Shown one piece after another: positions 9,181-64,000 of a stretch of 64,000 bases of DNA. The translations under genes were made by a program, and so were the position numbers. The stretch spans positions 2,854,475 through 2,918,474 of the forward strand of contig OX638344.1 in assembly GCA_951813555.1 (NCBI GenBank). Direction: 5' to 3'. The DNA is from an uncultured Acidimicrobiales bacterium. GTDB taxonomy: Bacteria > Actinomycetota > Acidimicrobiia > Acidimicrobiales > Bin134. Below the pieces are notes generated by a model, which saw nothing but the letters and a program-made list of their open reading frames with translations, searched no databases and was not told where the DNA came from. Positions within the stretch are counted from its first letter, which is position 1, and each line of letters opens with the position of its first letter.

Positions 9181-10303
9181 GGTGTCCCTTCTCATGGTTG
9201 CCGACGGATTCTCTCAGTGCTCGCAGACCGGGCAGGTCGCCCTGTTCGATCAGCTCCAGCGATGCCCCTCCCCCGGTGGACACATGGTCCATGTCCCGGC
9301 CTAGCCCGAATTGGCGTACCGCGGCGGCGCTGTCGCCCCCGCCCACCACGGTGAACGCCCGACTGTCGGCCAGGGCCTGGGACACCACCTTGGTTCCCGC
9401 CGCGAACCGAGGGTCTTCAAACAGCCCCATGGGGCCGTTCCACAGCACGGTGCCGGCCTCGGCGATTAGGTCGCTGAACTCAGCCGCGGTGCCCGGGCCG
9501 ATGTCCAGTCCCTTCCAGTCGGGGCGAAGGTCCACCCCGGCCTGCACTACTCGCTCCCCCGGCGCCAGCGCGGTGATGTCGGAGGGAAGCCGGATGGGTG
9601 CCCCCGAGCTCAATAGTCGACCGCAGGCCTCGATCTGATCTGGTTGCAGCAGCGAGTCGCCCACGCTGTGGCCCAGAGCAGCCAAGAAGGTGAAGCACAT
9701 GCCCCCGCCGATCACCACCTCATCGGCGGTTTCCAGCAGCGACTCGATCACCCCCAGCTTGTCGCTGACTTTGGCTCCGCCTAGCACCGCGACAAACGGC
9801 CGCTTGGGTTTGGCCCTCAGCCCGAGGAGCACTTCGGCCTCTTTGGCCAGCAGTCGCCCGGCTGCGCTGGGCACATAGCGGGGCGGTCCCACGATGGAGG
9901 CGTGGGCCCGATGAGATGCCCCGAAGGCATCGTTCACATAGCCATCGCAGCCATCGACGAGTTGCCCAACCAGTCTGTCGTGGTTGCCGGTTTCGCCGGG
10001 ATCGAAGCGCAGGTTCTCCAGCAATTCCACGCCCGGAGCGAGCTCGCCCAGTCGAGCCTGCACCGGGGCCAGCGAGTACCTGGGATCGGGCTTGCCGTCG
10101 GGGCGGCCAAGGTGACTGCACACGACCACCGCGGCTCCCTGATCGGTCAGCAACCGGATGGTGGGCAGTGCTGCTTTGATGCGGAAGTCATCGGCGATCT
10201 GGCCGCTGGCGTCGAGCGGGACGTTGAAGTCAGCCCGCAGCAGGATCCGTCGGCCGTCCAGCCCGCCCAGGGCCTCGCTCAGCGTTTCAAGGGTGGGCAG
10301 CAC
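9173..10303 (-). CDS. pgk: Phosphoglycerate kinase
   Basis: RILLRADFNVPLD...VVCSHLGRP...STGGGASLE hallmarks. I chose the GTG at 10301-10303, 8 nt after the gap stop. The track start at 10372 overlaps gap by 61 nt. Confidence 0.92.
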   Translation of the reverse strand: MLPTLETLSEALGGLDGRRILLRADFNVPLDASGQIADDFRIKAALPTIRLLTDQGAAVVVCSHLGRPDGKPDPRYSLAPVQARLGELAPGVELLENLRFDPGETGNHDRLVGQLVDGCDGYVNDAFGASHRAHASIVGPPRYVPSAAGRLLAKEAEVLLGLRAKPKRPFVAVLGGAKVSDKLGVIESLLETADEVVIGGGMCFTFLAALGHSVGDSLLQPDQIEACGRLLSSGAPIRLPSDITALAPGERVVQAGVDLRPDWKGLDIGPGTAAEFSDLIAEAGTVLWNGPMGLFEDPRFAAGTKVVSQALADSRAFTVVGGGDSAAAVRQFGLGRDMDHVSTGGGASLELIEQGDLPGLRALRESVGNHEKGHHG

Positions 10304-10311
10304 CTCGGTGC

Positions 10312-11322
<1,011 letters not shown>

Positions 11323-60137: not shown

Positions 60138-61253
60138 TCAAGTGCGGGTTGTGAGGGTGGCGAGGTCGGCTCGGAGGGTGCGGTAGAGCTCTCGGGCGAC
60201 GAAGCGTTTGAGGCAGCGGATGGCTTCTTTTTTGGTTTTGCCCTCGGCGACTCTGCGGTTCAGGTAGCTGCGGGTTTGTTCGCAGTAGCGGAGCCGGACG
60301 ATGACGATCATGTGCAGGGCGCGGTTGGCTTCGCGGTTGCCGGCGAAGTTGAGCCGGTGACGTTTGGTGCGTCGTGGCGATGCGGGGACGGGCGCGGCGC
60401 CGCACAGGTGGGCGAAGGACGCCTCGGAGTTGAGCCGGTCGATGTTCTCGCCGGCGGCGACGAGCAGGGCCGCGGTGTAGTGGGTGCCGCATCCGAGGCG
60501 CGACAGGGTTGTGGGCGCTGCGACGGCGACCAGCCGGTCGAGGCGGCGCTCGAGTTCGGCGGCATCGGCGCCGAGTTGGGCGATGCGGCGGCCGAGGCGG
60601 CGCAAAGCGGCTTTGGCGGCCTGGGCGGGATCGGCGAGGAGTCTGGTGTCTGGGCGCAGCCGTGCGCACACCGAGGCCTTGCCCTCGAGGGTGCGACGGC
60701 CGTCGAGCTGCTCGCGCAGCGCGGCGGGTGCAGTGACCAACAGGTCGCCGAGCTGGCACAGCGCAGCCGCCCGGGCCTTGACGGCGCTGCTGCGGGCGAC
60801 GCTGAGCTGGCGGATCGCCTCGACGATCCCGGTGGTGTCTTTGGCGGCAGCGGTCGCTTCGCCCGAGAGCACCTTGCGGGCCGCGGCCTTGGCGTCGATG
60901 GCGTCGTTCTTGCCGCGGCGGGCGCGCAGGTGCCGATGCGGCTGGTTGACCTCGACCACCGCACAGCCCCGCTCCAACAGAGACCGGGTCAAGGCGGCTC
61001 CGTAGGATCCGGTGGACTCGACGCCGACCGCGGCGATCTGGCCGAACGACGCGAGCCACTCATGGGTCGAGCGATAGCCGGCACACCTCGCGGGGAACGA
61101 CTCGGTGCCCAGCACCCGGCCCAATGGGTCGAGCGCGGCGGCGACATGGAAATCGGTGTGGCAGTCGATCCCCGCGATCACCGTTTGGTTCTGATCTGAA
61201 ATGCTGCTGTCCTTCTTCTCGAAGCGGCTGGCGTGCCGGGACGGGACGGACAT
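60138..61253 (-). CDS. IS110 family transposase (DEDD recombinase)
   Basis: VIAGIDCHTDFHVAAALD, VGVESTGSYG, KNDAIDA, and the C-terminal LCGAAPVPASP...GNREANRALHMIV module. Confidence 0.9.
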   Translation of the reverse strand: MSVPSRHASRFEKKDSSISDQNQTVIAGIDCHTDFHVAAALDPLGRVLGTESFPARCAGYRSTHEWLASFGQIAAVGVESTGSYGAALTRSLLERGCAVVEVNQPHRHLRARRGKNDAIDAKAAARKVLSGEATAAAKDTTGIVEAIRQLSVARSSAVKARAAALCQLGDLLVTAPAALREQLDGRRTLEGKASVCARLRPDTRLLADPAQAAKAALRRLGRRIAQLGADAAELERRLDRLVAVAAPTTLSRLGCGTHYTAALLVAAGENIDRLNSEASFAHLCGAAPVPASPRRTKRHRLNFAGNREANRALHMIVIVRLRYCEQTRSYLNRRVAEGKTKKEAIRCLKRFVARELYRTLRADLATLTTRT

Positions 61254-61453
61254 AACAGTGATGAGGCATCTGTCGCACAGGTTCCTATAAGGTCACGTCG
61301 CTCGTCCCGGACCGGCCGCCGTCAGCAACCCCGGAGACGGGCCGCCAACATCGACGAGTCCCAACCAAGGCACCCGCAACGCACGGGGCCAGTTTCACGC
61401 CAACCCAGACGCCGACGGCCCGCCCCGCACACATCTTCACTGTTTCACGCAGG
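61254..61453 (-). ncRNA. Speculative IS110 bridge (guide) RNA region in the 5' non-coding arm
   Basis: About 200 nt of non-coding sequence upstream of the recombinase, the location where IS110-group bridge RNAs have been described. It contains a 9-mer identical to the opposite IS end and a direct repeat gtttcacgc (61392-61400, 61442-61450). I could not verify any fold by hand. Confidence 0.2.
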
Positions 61454-61482
61454 CCCTGGGACCCCCTGGGTTTGGTGGAGGC

Positions 61483-61749
61483 GTGAATGCAGATGTGCGG
61501 CATAAGCAGACGTCGCGGCGGTATTCGCCGGAGCAGAAGGAGCACGCGGTGCGGATGGTGTTCGCGCTGTGTGAGGAGCTGGGCACCTCGGCGGACACGA
61601 TCACGCGTGTGGCTCGCCAACTCGGTTATGGGGTCGAGTCGGTCCACAAGTGGGTTGACCGGGCCAAGATCGACGCTGGGACCTGGGCGGGGCTGACCTC
61701 GGCGGAGAGCGAGGAGCTTAAGCGGTTGCACCAAGAGAACCGTGAGCAT
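61483..61749 (+). pseudogene. IS3-family transposase OrfA (HTH) fragment, 3'-truncated
   Basis: RRYSPEQKEHAVRMV...ITRVARQLGYGVESVHKWVDRAKIDAG...LTSAESEELKRLHQENRE. Similarity ends at about 61747. There is no frameshift site or OrfB, and GC content drops from about 61800. Confidence 0.7.
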
Positions 61750-61838
61750 CGTGCCGTTGGCCACCACAGCACACGGAGAAACTGTCACAGCCGTCGATAC
61801 GGTGGTCTAGGAGTCTGCAATTCTGAAAGGAAAACCAC

Positions 61839-62039
61839 ATGGAGACAATCGAGCGATTTACCTGGGGTGAACTGCTATGCACAATCTTGACCATATGGGG
61901 CGGATGGCTTTGGTTCTTCGCTGTCTTCGGCCTTGTCTTCTACGTCATGGACCTCAACCACATCACAGGACGTTGGAGATACCTGTTTCCACTAAGTATT
62001 GGGCTCGCGATTGTGTTATTGATCTGGATATTGTGTTGA
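61839..62039 (+). CDS. Hypothetical small two-TM membrane protein (low-GC block)
   Basis: aaaggaaaaccac precedes the ATG (SD-like). 66 aa with two hydrophobic helices (LLCTILTIWGGWLWFFAVFGLVFYV; YLFPLSIGLAIVLLIWIL). Confidence 0.5.
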   Translation: METIERFTWGELLCTILTIWGGWLWFFAVFGLVFYVMDLNHITGRWRYLFPLSIGLAIVLLIWILC

Positions 62040-62055
62040 ATTCGATGAGCTAAGC

Positions 62056-63027
62056 TTGTTTGACAGATATGGTATAATTGGAGCCGCAGTACGAGAGAAT
62101 GAATTGCAAGATATGGGTATTCACAAGATACTTAAGCCTCGTAGCCGTGAGGGACGAGTTCGCCTACTCAGCAAGCAAGGTCTGAATCATACTTGGTCAA
62201 TAGCTCAAATTTGGATCAGCGCCTGTGTGCTTATGTATCCTGCCCATAGCGCACGCTATATCTCAAGCGCTCTGGTATTGACTGTGCTGATTTGCTTGCT
62301 GCTGTCCGTTGAGGTCATGCCTTTGATGACTGTACTGGCCACTGTGTACATAGCGATGGAGTTATTTGACAGGTTTGCTCAGTCGCGTCGCAGGAATTTC
62401 GAGGGGAGTAGATTCCACGATGTTGAGAAACTGGACAATTTACAAAGAATCCTTATCTACAAGCGAAAGCAATTCTGGGCACAACGATTGCTTGCATCCT
62501 ATTTGCAAACCGAGCTTGACAGACGAAAATACTTGCAGTTTATGGTAGATGAGGGGCAGTGGGGAAGCCCGCCGTACGAATATGTGCGCATCATGGAATT
62601 CGAAGAGTGGCTAAATACGCGTATACAGGAATTCGGAGACTTCGGTCCCTGTGGGGAAGCGATTATGAACAATGCGCTCACTATTTCGCCTTGGGATCGT
62701 GAAAATACGGTCGATCAAGTGGAAAATGTCGTTGCAGCAGTGGACATGATGGTGGAACTCTGGGAAGGCGTTGCAAAATGGATACTGCGATGCCGTTCCG
62801 TGTGTGTGCATGACAGCGTAGGAGAAATACCTCAGGGCCTATCGGTGCTCGGCATGAGCATGTTCAGCACTCTACGCGATCTGCCTGGTGAGCTAACTTC
62901 TGTGATAGGCGAGATGATTGAAGAGCTAGGACGATATGGCGGTGAATGCAGTGTCACTGTGACTTTTGAGGCTGACGCTGAAGAGTTTTCTGGAGCCATA
63001 CAAGATGTTCTAACAGCGGTTGATTAG
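62056..63027 (+). CDS. Hypothetical membrane-anchored protein, no recognisable domain (low-GC block)
   Basis: Two predicted TM helices near the N-terminus, then a soluble region of about 210 aa. It starts 16 nt after the small TM gene. The start is TTG 62056 or ATG 62113. An extended -10-like TGgTATAAT lies at 62070-62078. Confidence 0.55.
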   Translation: MFDRYGIIGAAVRENELQDMGIHKILKPRSREGRVRLLSKQGLNHTWSIAQIWISACVLMYPAHSARYISSALVLTVLICLLLSVEVMPLMTVLATVYIAMELFDRFAQSRRRNFEGSRFHDVEKLDNLQRILIYKRKQFWAQRLLASYLQTELDRRKYLQFMVDEGQWGSPPYEYVRIMEFEEWLNTRIQEFGDFGPCGEAIMNNALTISPWDRENTVDQVENVVAAVDMMVELWEGVAKWILRCRSVCVHDSVGEIPQGLSVLGMSMFSTLRDLPGELTSVIGEMIEELGRYGGECSVTVTFEADAEEFSGAIQDVLTAVD

Positions 63028-63130
63028 AGGAAGCGATTGCATCTGAAATATGATCTCGGAAGACCATGCGCCACTCTCGTATATTAGTTTCATTAGAGGA
63101 AATATATTTACTGCATTGAAGCTTTACATC

Positions 63131-63259
63131 AAGCTTGGCCACCGTGGCCAGCGACAGGCTCATCTGAGCGGCCACATGGGCCTGAGACTTACCCCCCTGG
63201 ATCCGCTGGATGATCAACAACCACCCCATAGGGGTCAGGCATGCACTAGCGTGCGACAT
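63131..63259 (-). pseudogene. IS481-family transposase N-terminal (HTH) relic
   Basis: MSHASACLTPMGWLLIIQRIQGGKSQAHVAAQMSLSLATVAKL; compare the IS481 consensus start MSHANARLTP-GR-LL. No catalytic domain follows. Confidence 0.55.
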
Positions 63260-63429: not shown

Positions 63430-64000
63430 CTATGGGGCAGTCTCCATCCCAGGAAATTGTTGATTTTCGTAACCGCTGATTTTCTTCTTCGTCCACCGCA
63501 TTAGAGAAATTGCACTTGGATGATCAGTTGCGTGGAACATGTGGTATTGTGGCCTCCCTGTATCCGGGTCCCTGATTGGCTGGGGTATCACATATTGATA
63601 CCCCAGCCCTCGTAGAAGATCTGCGTAACGTTCGACTAGCGCGCCGCTGGGCTTGTCGCTTTCCCACAGATCCCACCAATTGCCTCGCCTTCCGAAGATG
63701 CGATCGAGTGTACTAGCGCTAAGGGTTTCCGGATATCTCGACCGATCATCAGGCCAAAGGCGATAGATTGCTTGGTGGGAGTTGAATAAAATCCAAAGTT
63801 CCACTTTGCAAGCCCTAGGTCTACCATTAGACGTTGGTGGCGGCTCATAGCTCTTCCAATGGGCCAATGCTTCAATAGTATTCCATTCAAGTTGAGTGGA
63901 ATCCTGGTCCAACAGGACGAAGCACGGTCGAGAACAATCCAGGCGAGTCAGCTGGAGCAATTCTGGAATAACCTGGTTGCAGTCCCCCTGGTGCAGCGAG
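63430..64000 (-). CDS. Three-Cys-motif partner protein (TcmP)-like, 5' end beyond the window
   Basis: The frame is open to position 64000 (..SLHQGDCNQVIPELLQLTRLD..). FVLLDQDSTQLEWNTIEALA, KVELWILF, LDRIFG..W and YHMFHATDHPSAISLM match my recollection of the TcmP layout. Confidence 0.55.
   Translation of the reverse strand, partial: SLHQGDCNQVIPELLQLTRLDCSRPCFVLLDQDSTQLEWNTIEALAHWKSYEPPPTSNGRPRACKVELWILFNSHQAIYRLWPDDRSRYPETLSASTLDRIFGRRGNWWDLWESDKPSGALVERYADLLRGLGYQYVIPQPIRDPDTGRPQYHMFHATDHPSAISLMRWTKKKISGYENQQFPGMETAP

What the first reader, a model, noticed from the sequence alone, without database searches (positions are those of the whole stretch)
61790..63027. Low-GC two-gene membrane cassette of unknown function inside a TA/IS hotspot: candidate novel defence or abortive-infection module
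GC content falls sharply at about 61800, to 45% in my count of 62101-62160 against 67-80% in core samples. This happens exactly where an IS3 orfA is truncated. The block encodes a 66-aa two-TM protein with an SD-like site. Sixteen nt later it encodes a 323-aa protein with two N-terminal TM helices and a soluble domain in which I recognise no family. The pair is bracketed by phd/relE, hicAB, IS110/IS3 debris, an IS481 relic and a TcmP-like gene. Small membrane protein plus uncharacterised effector is a layout used by several abortive-infection systems, and defence islands are where new systems tend to be found.
Basis: partly seen in the sequence, partly recalled or inferred. Interest (0 to 1): 0.7.

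Follow-up and report, generated by a model that had tools for sequence, protein, structure and literature searches.

The report
Membrane-anchored relative of DUF4062 phage-defence proteins
The low-GC block holds one conserved gene for a membrane-anchored protein whose cytoplasmic half matches the non-enzymatic half of recently described DUF4062 (TIR-like NADase) anti-phage proteins, so it is probably a single-gene phage-defence protein that uses a membrane hairpin in place of the NAD-destroying enzyme.

Summary
GC falls from about 65% to about 47% at 61777, next to a truncated IS3 orfA. A 66-aa two-TM ORF (61839-62039) and a larger ORF follow. Homologues show the larger gene starts at ATG 62113 (304 aa), not TTG 62056.

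No Pfam, NCBIfam, PHROG or PADLOC family matches either protein. The 304-aa protein has eight close relatives, all from metagenomes. All five with enough flank sit among known defence genes: DISARM, SIR2-HerA, AbiE, DRT and PD-Lambda-3.

Its cytoplasmic all-helical domain (residues ~104-296) is homologous to the C-terminal half of at least 200 DUF4062 proteins of ~385 aa. DUF4062 was shown in 2026 to be a TIR-like NADase effector of the single-gene defence systems Swarozyc and Evangelion. Here a two-TM hairpin replaces DUF4062. A second lineage (P0014) made a similar replacement independently.

The small ORF accompanies the gene in only 2 of 8 loci, so the conserved unit is one gene, not a pair.

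Best reading: a phage-sensing abortive-infection protein with a membrane effector. This is inferred from homology and context, not shown. I rate it a new variant of a known kind, of moderate interest.

The parts
61483..61776 (+). Truncated IS3-family orfA (HTH_Tnp_1) that abuts the left edge of the low-GC block
   Evidence: Pfam PF01527, E 3.6e-7, residues 9-91. Homology of the cassette to L001 begins at 61777.
61777..61808 (+). 32-nt non-coding element AGAAACTGTCACAGCCGTCGATACGGTGGTCT. It is 100% conserved in L001. Its first 30 nt are identical in a Ca. Poriferisocius MAG (L011). It marks the junction between a shared flank and variable low-GC cargo.
   Evidence: Unique in the window. No Rfam match.
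61826..61832 (+). Shine-Dalgarno-like AAAGGAA, 6 nt before the small ORF's ATG
   Evidence: Read from the sequence. Conserved in L001.
61839..62039 (+). Small ORF of 66 aa with two hydrophobic helices. It is an accessory, lineage-restricted neighbour, not an obligate partner.
   Evidence: ORF. Hydropathy. A 46%-identical 67-aa ORF at L001 8724-8927 is the only relative. dN/dS is about 0.48, with the same dS as the large gene.
62070..62078 (+). TGGTATAAT, a perfect extended -10 consensus 35 nt upstream of the large gene's ATG. It is a possible own promoter, but this is a consensus match only.
   Evidence: Read from the sequence. The two-hexamer scan did not report it. It is only partly conserved in L001.
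62113..63027 (+). The conserved gene. It encodes a 304-aa membrane-anchored protein: a basic N-terminus, a two-TM hairpin and a cytoplasmic all-alpha domain.
   Evidence: The start is fixed by eight homologues. dN/dS is 0.11-0.26 for distant pairs. AF2 model has mean pLDDT 79, and above 90 in the soluble domain.
62260..62364 (+). Two-TM hairpin (residues 50-66 and 68-84, one-residue turn (E67)). Predicted topology is N-in/C-in.
   Evidence: Kyte-Doolittle peaks 2.68 and 1.76. Residues 1-48 hold 8 K/R against 1 D/E, and an RRR follows TM2. The helices appear in the AF2 model. Many positions are invariant across 9 sequences.
62422..63024 (+). Cytoplasmic helical domain, homologous to the post-TIR half ('stalk + AUX') of a DUF4062 protein lineage. 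It carries the conserved motif LWE(G/D)vAxWxLRCRSVxV.
   Evidence: phmmer E 2.7e-13 to 9e-8. Profile search finds 214 proteins, most with PF13271. tblastn gives 28.6% identity, E 6e-17, to P0028. The order of secondary-structure elements matches in the two models. No PDB or BFVD structural match.
63028..63061 (+). Remnant of the ancestral last ~12 codons and stop of the 313-aa clade. A 1-nt deletion near 63010 put it out of frame.
   Evidence: DNA alignment with L001, L003, L006 and L007.
63152..63259 (-). IS481-family transposase N-terminal (HTH) relic
   Evidence: tblastn to an annotated IS481 transposase on a Microbacterium plasmid: 58% identity over 36 aa, E 6e-5. No Pfam hit.
63430..64000 (-). 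TcmP (three-Cys-motif partner) gene. It is open to the window edge and lies in the same low-GC island.
   Evidence: NCBIfam TIGR04474, E 2.1e-19, profile positions 127-261 of 263. Weak PADLOC PDC-M41A hit, E 5e-5. The frame is open to 63999.

Best explanation
The functional unit is one gene, 62113-63027. It encodes an inner-membrane protein with a basic cytoplasmic N-terminus, a tight two-helix membrane hairpin, and an acidic all-helical cytoplasmic domain of about 200 residues.

That domain is the same one that forms the non-enzymatic C-terminal half (stalk plus auxiliary 'AUX' region) of a lineage of DUF4062 proteins. In the characterised DUF4062 systems, Swarozyc and Evangelion, the AUX region is needed for defence. 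In KpSwz it binds a phage protein (the portal) and assembles side by side. That assembly switches on the N-terminal TIR-like NADase and the infected cell dies.

I propose that the window protein is the membrane-effector version of this design. The cytoplasmic domain would recognise a phage-derived trigger and oligomerise. This would cluster the membrane hairpins so that the membrane is breached or depolarised, aborting the infection.

Shown here:
- homology of the domain to the DUF4062 lineage;
- absence of DUF4062 from the window protein;
- the TM hairpin;
- purifying selection on the gene;
- residence in defence islands;
- the gene standing alone in most loci.

Inferred:
- that this AUX type senses phage;
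- that the hairpin is an effector rather than a mere anchor;
- the abortive outcome.

The 66-aa ORF is a local accessory or passenger, not part of the conserved system.
For: (1) Homology. A single-sequence phmmer search of 1.84 billion representatives finds eight distant relatives besides the close homologue P0002. Seven of them align to query residues ~123-315 (E 2.7e-13 to 9e-8); the eighth, the 121-aa P0011, aligns to residues 56-156. One relative, P0015, has DUF4062 (PF13271, E 8.5e-18). A profile search gives 214 proteins, of which the listed ones are almost all ~385 aa with PF13271. tblastn gives E 6e-17 to P0028. The AF2 models of both proteins show the same helix order.

(2) The DUF4062 relatives look like active enzymes. 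Their profile hits the solved KpSwz DUF4062 domain (E 5.5e-5), and their invariant E89 aligns with the position of catalytic E97. The P0028 model hits TIR and nucleoside-2-deoxyribosyltransferase-like folds with probability ~1.

(3) Literature. DUF4062+AUX proteins are single-gene abortive defence systems, and AUX is required. In KpSwz, AUX binds the portal as a 13-subunit crescent (bioRxiv 10.64898/2026.05.01.722283; 10.64898/2026.06.25.731849).

(4) The N-terminal replacement recurs. P0014 has a one-TM N-terminus on an AUX that is 54% identical to that of a DUF4062 protein.

(5) TIR and TM effectors alternate on the same chassis in other systems (abstract of 10.64898/2026.08.12.744502).

(6) Context. 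L002 has DRT UG22, AbiEii, TmtA-like and DpdF-like genes. L004 has SIR2+HerA. L005 has DISARM DrmABC and PD-Lambda-3_B. L001 has PD-Lambda-3_B, HerA-like and MTase genes. L003 has AbiEi/Eii, PDC-S15 and a type I S subunit. The window has Phd/ParE, TcmP and IS elements.

(7) The flanks differ in every locus and only the gene is shared.

(8) dN/dS is 0.11-0.26, in the TM part as well as the soluble part.

(9) The positive-inside rule places the domain in the cytoplasm.
Against: - There is no experimental or expression evidence. No RNA runs were found.
- The AUX type here is not detectably homologous to the only structurally characterised AUX. KpSwz AUX is an HTH/winged fold, whereas this domain is all-alpha, and neither profile hits it. 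Its sensing role is therefore an analogy.
- A two-helix hairpin may be only an anchor.
- The clade is very rare: 9 sequences among about 15 billion proteins, with none in phage, plasmid, GTDB species or JGI collections.
- The window copy has lost the last ~10 residues of its clade through a 1-nt deletion. The 301-aa clade ends at about the same point, however.
- No PADLOC model matches.
Confidence: 0.5

Rival explanations
1. The 66-aa two-TM protein and the 304-aa protein work together as a two-gene abortive-infection system. The small protein could be a pore-former or holin-like killer, or an immunity or antitoxin partner of the larger membrane protein.
For: The two ORFs are inherited as one block in the window and in L001, with the same dS (0.85 against 0.84). 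They share a conserved upstream element and Shine-Dalgarno site. The small ORF stays open in both, with a 3-nt indel, and its dN/dS is about 0.48.
Against: Six of the eight loci have no homologous small ORF and no other small hydrophobic ORF upstream. In L002 and L004, IS fragments abut the gene start. The small protein has no other relatives. In L011 the same upstream element precedes a different small two-TM ORF with no large gene, so the small ORF seems to go with the element rather than with the large gene. A possible own promoter lies between the two ORFs.
Confidence: 0.12
2. Same sensor but a non-lethal output. The membrane-tethered domain binds a phage protein or incoming complex and sequesters it at the membrane. 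This would be exclusion or assembly blocking, as with superinfection-exclusion proteins, and would not kill the cell.
For: The homology and context evidence is the same as for the best explanation. A two-helix hairpin with a one-residue turn (E67) is a minimal anchor. KpSwz AUX binds the portal stoichiometrically.
Against: In the related DUF4062 proteins the N-terminal module is a killing enzyme, so replacement by another effector is the more economical reading. The TM residues are as conserved as the soluble domain (dN/dS 0.22 against 0.20) and many are invariant. That is more conservation than a mere anchor needs.
Confidence: 0.15
3. The protein is a regulator or decoy of DUF4062-AUX systems. 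An enzyme-less, membrane-tethered AUX would co-assemble with, or compete for the trigger of, a DUF4062-AUX protein encoded elsewhere. This would make it a dominant-negative brake or an anti-defence factor carried by a mobile element.
For: It keeps the stalk and AUX part, through which KpSwz oligomerises, but lacks the enzyme. DUF4062-AUX relatives occur in the same metagenome sample as one homologue: L005 and L008/L010 are both from ERZ25071132.
Against: No DUF4062 gene lies in the window or within the flanks of any of the seven homologous loci. There are no relatives in phage or plasmid collections. Identity to the DUF4062 lineage is only 20-31%, which is low for co-assembly.
Confidence: 0.07
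4. It is not a defence gene. It would be an uncharacterised membrane protein carried as cargo of mobile DNA, or a decaying copy silenced in this genome, whose island location is incidental.
For: Low GC (47-54%) in hosts whose surrounding sequence is mostly 57-71% GC in all eight loci marks foreign DNA of any function. IS debris lies on both sides. The window copy has a 3' frameshift. There is no transcription evidence.
Against: Purifying selection acts across the clade. The domain is specifically homologous to the partner domain of a proven defence effector. Five of five informative loci carry several known defence systems immediately adjacent.
Confidence: 0.15

Closest known systems
Swarozyc (KpSwz) and Evangelion (Eva01): single-gene DUF4062/TIR-like NADase + AUX anti-phage systems (bioRxiv 10.64898/2026.05.01.722283; 10.64898/2026.06.25.731849)
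   Same: A single gene in defence islands or mobile DNA. A two-part design with an N-terminal output module joined by helices to a C-terminal auxiliary region that matches no Pfam family. The window protein's C-terminal half is homologous to the auxiliary half of one (untested) DUF4062 lineage.
   Different: The window protein has no DUF4062 domain. A two-TM hairpin takes its place, so NAD depletion cannot be its output. Its AUX type is all-alpha and not detectably related to the HTH/winged AUX of KpSwz. None of the three 2026 DUF4062 preprints contains the word 'transmembrane'.
The ~385-aa DUF4062 proteins of metagenomic/MAG origin (P0015, P0018-P0129, e.g. P0028; one is annotated 'DUF4062 domain-containing protein [Chloroflexota bacterium]')
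   Same: The same C-terminal domain, with the motif WED.A.W.LRCRSVRV and the same helix order. They also lie in integrase/AlpA islands next to helicase-type defence genes.
   Different: They carry an N-terminal TIR-like domain with an invariant Glu. Their GC is 61% with GC3 0.75, close to their hosts, whereas the TM clade has GC 47-54%. Identity to the window protein is only 20-31%.
Defence effectors in which TM helices alternate with TIR on one sensor chassis (Pycsar/Pucsar TM versus TIR effectors; CARF-TM of Panoptes; CBASS 2TM effectors)
   Same: N-terminal TM helices fused to a cytoplasmic sensing domain. The TM module stands where relatives carry a TIR-type NADase (abstracts; the rest is my own knowledge).
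   Different: Those effectors bind a nucleotide second messenger made by a partner cyclase. Here there is no cyclase neighbour and no nucleotide-binding domain. The trigger would have to be sensed directly.
P0014 (340 aa; loci L012/L013)
   Same: An enzyme-less, TM-anchored version of the same AUX domain, next to a large DUF4011/AAA_11/AAA_12 helicase.
   Different: It has one TM helix and a long linker. Its AUX is 54% identical to the DUF4062 lineage but only ~23-30% identical to the window protein. It is therefore an independent fusion with high GC (0.62).

Membership tests
Swarozyc / Evangelion (DUF4062 single-gene defence) | N-terminal DUF4062 (PF13271) TIR-like NADase core with catalytic Glu | tested here: not met
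   No Pfam hit at E <= 0.1. The N-terminal 100 residues are a basic tail plus a two-TM hairpin. tblastn with five DUF4062 N-termini finds nothing in the window.
Swarozyc / Evangelion (DUF4062 single-gene defence) | C-terminal auxiliary (AUX) region attached to the output module | tested here: met
   Residues ~104-296 are homologous to the C-terminal half of DUF4062 proteins, with the same predicted helix order.
Swarozyc / Evangelion (DUF4062 single-gene defence) | AUX related to the characterised KpSwz AUX (HTH/winged fold with hairpin anchor, portal binding) | tested here: not met
   Profiles A2 and A8 do not hit the AUX part of PDB 10wc/11cq/11cv. The model is all-alpha, and its best PDB hits are talin-rod bundles at E >= 0.19. 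The Foldseek PDB copy ends 2026-04-08 and may lack KpSwz.
Swarozyc / Evangelion (DUF4062 single-gene defence) | Stand-alone gene located in defence islands or mobile elements | tested here: met
   Only the gene is shared between loci. Known defence systems are adjacent in L001-L005.
Swarozyc / Evangelion (DUF4062 single-gene defence) | Phage-triggered NAD+ depletion and abortive infection | not testable with these tools
   This needs infection assays. NAD+ depletion is not expected without DUF4062.
TM-effector abortive-infection proteins (Pycsar/Pucsar-TM, CBASS 2TM, CARF-TM) | N-terminal transmembrane helices fused to a cytoplasmic sensing domain | tested here: met
   Two hydrophobic segments at 50-66 and 68-84, with a positive-inside N-terminus. 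The helices appear in the AF2 model.
TM-effector abortive-infection proteins (Pycsar/Pucsar-TM, CBASS 2TM, CARF-TM) | Second-messenger-binding domain and a partner cyclase in the operon | tested here: not met
   No cNMP, SAVED or CARF domain. No cyclase among the neighbours in any locus.
TM-effector abortive-infection proteins (Pycsar/Pucsar-TM, CBASS 2TM, CARF-TM) | Membrane disruption on activation | not testable with these tools
   This needs membrane-potential or dye-uptake assays.
   A small-ORF homologue is present in 2 of 8 loci. It has no other relatives.
   PADLOC gives no hit for the small protein, and only E 0.025-0.041 noise for the large one.
Site-specific gene cassette (integron-like) | Conserved recombination site at the cassette boundary, with a cognate integrase | tested here: inconclusive
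   A 30-32-nt element is identical at the left boundary in three loci, with different cargo in L011. There is no inverted-repeat structure, no second copy at the right boundary and no integrase in view. Only three instances are known.

The most novel reading that the evidence does not exclude
The helical domain would be a portable phage-sensor module that nature has wired to two unrelated killing devices: a TIR-like NADase (DUF4062) and a membrane hairpin. That would make this the first natural effector swap in the Swarozyc/Evangelion superfamily. It would also offer a way to find the trigger, because the same sensor gives two read-outs.

In addition, the exactly conserved 30-32-nt element at the left edge (61777-61808) could be a site-specific recombination or promoter junction. 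Low-GC defence cassettes in sponge-symbiont Acidimicrobiia would be exchanged behind it, as in an integron-like hotspot.
Probability: 0.12. Interest if true: 0.8.

Novelty: new variant of a known kind. Interest (0 to 1): 0.55.

Why it matters
DUF4062+AUX proteins were recognised as a widespread defence family only in 2026, and what their diverse AUX regions sense is mostly unknown. A natural variant that joins the same AUX-type domain to a membrane hairpin instead of the NADase would have three consequences.

- It supports the view that AUX is an autonomous sensing and assembly module.
- It predicts a second, NAD-independent output for this family.
- It gives a matched pair of proteins (P0028-type and the window type) whose escaper phages should map to the same trigger.

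It also adds an unnamed domain family of at least 200 members that is missing from Pfam and PADLOC, so current defence finders miss these genes. The host is an uncultured sponge symbiont (a Ca. Poriferisocius-like member of the Acidimicrobiia), whose defence repertoire is poorly explored. If the gene does nothing against phage, the finding reduces to a rare orphan membrane protein on foreign DNA.

Tried and rejected
- Family searches. Pfam, NCBIfam, PHROGs and PADLOC on both proteins gave nothing significant. The PADLOC hits HEC-02B and REase_MTase_IIG (E 0.025-0.041) are noise. PADLOC on eight relatives (seven with, or truncated from, the DUF4062 architecture, plus TM-anchored P0014) gave nothing, so this lineage is not in PADLOC-DB 2.0. 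Weak DUF6218 hits on P0010 and P0015 (E 0.03-0.04) are below threshold and were ignored.
- Structure searches. Foldseek of the window model against PDB and BFVD gave no match with E <= 0.001. The talin-rod hits are generic helical bundles. PDB sequence and profile searches for the AUX domain gave nothing.
- Searches for more family members gave nothing. I tried GTDB species genomes, JGI metagenome contigs, phage records and plasmid records.
- The small protein finds only itself in the 5.8-billion-cluster search.
- I suspected that the 313-aa and 301-aa genes next to P0028 in L008 and L010 were paralogues of the TM clade. tblastn shows they are not; the matching lengths are coincidence.
- Shorter relatives without PF13271 (P0027, P0035, P0067, P0078, P0080, P0081, P0092, P0121) are N-terminally truncated calls of the DUF4062 architecture, not new architectures.
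- Promoter/terminator scan: one promoter-like and one terminator-like site, no more than the shuffled controls give. Repeat search: no terminal repeats around the block. Rfam: nothing.
- Read mapping. Run X1 holds the locus exactly at about 7x. Run X3 matches only the IS-like parts. No RNA data were found, so this says nothing on transcription or on presence/absence polymorphism.
- The third DUF4062 preprint (10.64898/2026.09.04.749371, 'NIR') could not be opened. A full-text search shows it does not contain 'transmembrane'.
Full report
**Observation.** Base composition drops from 0.62-0.75 GC (60300-61800) to 0.44-0.52 (61800-63100). It stays near 0.5 to the end of the window.

Upstream lie several mobile and toxin-antitoxin genes:
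- an IS3 orfA remnant (HTH_Tnp_1, residues 9-91);
- an apparently intact IS110 transposase;
- a PhdYeFM antitoxin and a ParE/RelE-type toxin;
- a weak HicA-like ORF (E 0.05).

Downstream lie an IS481 HTH relic and a TcmP gene that runs off the window.

The host is an Acidimicrobiia bacterium close to Candidatus Poriferisocius. Named members of the 90% clusters of two window proteins say so.

**Gene boundaries.** The large protein has eight close homologues (52-71% identity; 313 or 301 aa), all from metagenome assemblies. All of them begin at the position of M20 of the TTG ORF. DNA similarity to the other loci starts at 62111-62112. The gene is therefore 62113-63027 and the protein is 304 aa.

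Distant pairs give dN/dS of 0.11-0.26, equally in the N-terminal 100 residues and in the rest. It is a real gene under purifying selection.

Relative to the 313-aa clade, the window copy has a 1-nt deletion near its 3' end. This creates the present stop. The old last ~12 codons and the TGA remain recognisable up to about 63061. The 301-aa clade ends at about the same place, so this is probably harmless.

**Architecture.**
- Residues 1-48 are basic (8 K/R, 1 D/E).
- Residues 50-66 and 68-84 are strongly hydrophobic, with a one-residue turn (E67).
- An RRR cluster follows.
- The rest is acidic (17 K/R, 34 D/E).

By the positive-inside rule this is an N-in/C-in hairpin with a cytoplasmic C-terminal domain.

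The AlphaFold2 model was built on an 84-sequence alignment. It has mean pLDDT 79 overall and above 90 through most of residues 120-300, and it is all-helical. Foldseek finds nothing meaningful in PDB or BFVD; the best hits are talin-rod bundles at E 0.19. Pfam, NCBIfam, PHROGs and PADLOC give no family.

**The key relationship.** An exhaustive phmmer search of 1.84 billion representatives finds eight more distant proteins. Seven of them match query residues ~123-315 (E 2.7e-13 to 9e-8); the eighth, the 121-aa P0011, matches residues 56-156. One of the seven, P0015 (388 aa), has an N-terminal DUF4062 domain (PF13271, E 8.5e-18).

A profile search then returns 214 proteins. Almost all of the 120 listed are 367-398 aa with PF13271. 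The shorter ones are truncated calls of the same architecture. tblastn aligns window residues 104-296 to the C-terminal half of P0028 (28.6% identity, E 6e-17).

The two AF2 models share the same order of helices and two short strand bridges in this region. The most conserved shared feature is the motif LWE(D/G).A.W.LRCRSV.V.

The DUF4062 relatives look like competent enzymes:
- Their profile hits the solved KpSwz DUF4062 domain (PDB 10wc, E 5.5e-5). Their invariant Glu (E89) aligns to the position of catalytic E97, which is Ala in the deposited E97A construct.
- The P0028 model matches TIR domains (TIR-STING, RPP1, SPARTA, RPS4) and nucleoside-2-deoxyribosyltransferase-like enzymes with probability ~1.

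**What is known about DUF4062.** Two 2026 preprints are relevant.
- DUF4062 is a TIR-like NADase. DUF4062+AUX proteins are single-gene abortive-infection systems named Swarozyc. KpSwz needs its AUX domain, which binds the phage portal as a crescent of 13 side-by-side subunits and thereby activates NAD+ hydrolysis (10.64898/2026.05.01.722283).
- In Evangelion, a conserved DUF4062 core is coupled to highly variable AUX regions that are essential and match no recognised domain (10.64898/2026.06.25.731849).

Neither text mentions transmembrane variants. A full-text search finds no 2026 DUF4062 paper with that word.

The AUX type studied here is not detectably related to KpSwz AUX.

**Interpretation.** The window protein keeps the stalk and AUX half of one DUF4062 lineage but has a two-TM hairpin where the relatives have the NADase. 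The same kind of replacement happened independently in P0014. That protein has one TM helix and a linker in front of an AUX that is 54% identical to the AUX of a DUF4062 protein. It sits next to a DUF4011/AAA_11/AAA_12 helicase.

TIR and TM effectors are known alternatives on one chassis in other defence families, for example Pucsar/Pycsar and CARF-TM (abstracts; otherwise my own knowledge).

The most economical mechanism has three steps. The cytoplasmic domain senses a phage component and oligomerises. The hairpins then cluster and damage the membrane. The infected cell is lost. Only the anatomy and the homology are shown; the trigger, the oligomerisation and the membrane effect are inferred.

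**Context.** Every homologous locus with enough flank is a defence island.

| Locus | Neighbouring defence genes |
|---|---|
| L001 | PD-Lambda-3_B, HerA-like ATPase, type II MTase |
| L002 | DRT (UG22), AbiEii, TmtA-like, DpdF-like helicase |
| L003 | AbiEi/AbiEii, STAND-like ATPase, PDC-S15 (FRG), type I S subunit |
| L004 | SIR2 + HerA |
| L005 | PD-Lambda-3_B and MTase on one side, DISARM DrmA/B/C on the other |

The neighbours differ in every case. Only the gene itself is shared between loci and with the window.

No DUF4062 gene lies in the window or in those flanks.

The DUF4062 relative P0028 occurs with an identical sequence in three different integrase/AlpA or IS-rich islands.

**The small ORF.** A 46%-identical 67-aa ORF precedes the gene in L001 only. 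The other six loci have no homologue and no other small hydrophobic ORF upstream. The large protein database returns only the query itself.

Between the window and L001 the small ORF has the same dS as the large gene (0.85) and a dN/dS of about 0.48. It is probably a real but weakly constrained membrane peptide inherited with this sub-lineage.

A perfect extended -10 consensus (TGGTATAAT, 62070-62078) lies between the two ORFs. This fits independent expression of the large gene, but it is only a consensus match.

The two-gene reading is therefore not the conserved unit.

**Composition.** The gene is 47-54% GC (GC3 0.45-0.61) in all eight loci. The more distant flanks (600-5000 nt from the gene), where present, are 56-71%. 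The DUF4062 relatives and P0014 are 61-62% GC with GC3 0.75, close to their hosts. The TM clade thus looks persistently foreign to its high-GC hosts. I have no tested explanation for this.

**A junction element.** The first 32 nt of the block (61777-61808) are 100% identical in L001, although the block as a whole is about 75% identical.

The exact 23-mer core occurs once in the GTDB species genomes, in a Ca. Poriferisocius MAG (L011). There it is followed by a different small two-TM ORF and other low-GC ORFs, without the large gene.

L001 and L011 share the flank on the other side of the element. In the window that flank is replaced by the IS3 remnant. The element therefore marks a boundary between a shared flank and variable cargo. 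It could be a promoter or operator, or a recombination site.

Three instances are too few to decide, and no more were found.

**Verdict.** The defence interpretation is supported by homology and context, but as a single-gene system rather than a pair.

It is not a member of the Swarozyc/Evangelion family in the strict sense, because it has no DUF4062 domain. It is best described as a membrane-effector variant built on the auxiliary domain of one DUF4062 lineage. I rate it a new variant of a known kind, of moderate interest, and untested experimentally.

Noticed in passing
window 61777-61808; L001 8665-8696; L011 1772-1807 (-): A 30-32-nt non-coding element is exactly conserved at the left edge of the low-GC block in three diverged loci. 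In L011 (Ca. Poriferisocius MAG OZ242341.1) it precedes a different small two-TM ORF and different cargo. L001 and L011 share the opposite flank. It may be a promoter/operator or a recombination junction.
   Followed up: partly
window ~63005-63061: A 1-nt deletion relative to the 313-aa clade moves the stop to 63025-63027. The ancestral last ~12 codons and the TGA remain recognisable downstream.
   Followed up: yes
window 62113-63027 and the homologous genes in L001-L007: All eight genes of the TM clade are 47-54% GC in hosts of mostly 57-71% GC, even after diverging to 52% protein identity. The DUF4062 relatives are 61% GC. The persistently foreign composition is unexplained.
   Followed up: partly
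L012 8001-9023; L013 4575-5597: P0014 is an independent TM-anchored (one helix) version of the same AUX domain. Its AUX is 54% identical to that of a DUF4062 protein. It lies directly after a 1346-aa DUF4011/AAA_11/AAA_12/MTES_1575 helicase.
   Followed up: partly
L008, L009, L010 (gene at 10001-11164 in each): The identical DUF4062-AUX protein P0028 sits in three different islands. Two have a tyrosine integrase plus AlpA. The neighbours include MZB helicases, DUF4365 and PD-Lambda-3-like (Hypoth_Ymh) genes. This indicates recent horizontal spread.
   Followed up: no
L002, L004, L005 (301-aa clade genes): The three closest pairs have dN/dS of 0.46-0.61, against 0.11-0.26 for distant pairs. This could be relaxed or diversifying selection, or simply short divergence.
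   Followed up: no
window 62060-62078: TTGACA and TGGTATAAT lie only 7 nt apart in the 73-nt gap between the small ORF and the large gene. The second is a perfect extended -10, so the large gene may have its own promoter.
   Followed up: no
window 63430-64000 (-): A TcmP (TIGR04474) gene is open to the window edge and lies in the same low-GC island. It has a weak PADLOC PDC-M41A hit (E 5e-5). Its three-Cys-motif partner would lie beyond 64000.
   Followed up: no
window 60138-61253 (-): The IS110-family transposase (371 aa, both Pfam domains) looks intact rather than debris. Related copies are at high depth in the metagenome runs.
   Followed up: no
window 62236-63027: The public gene call for this locus (P0001, 264 aa) starts at an internal Met. 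It cuts off the basic N-terminus, so automatic annotation under-calls the protein.
   Followed up: yes
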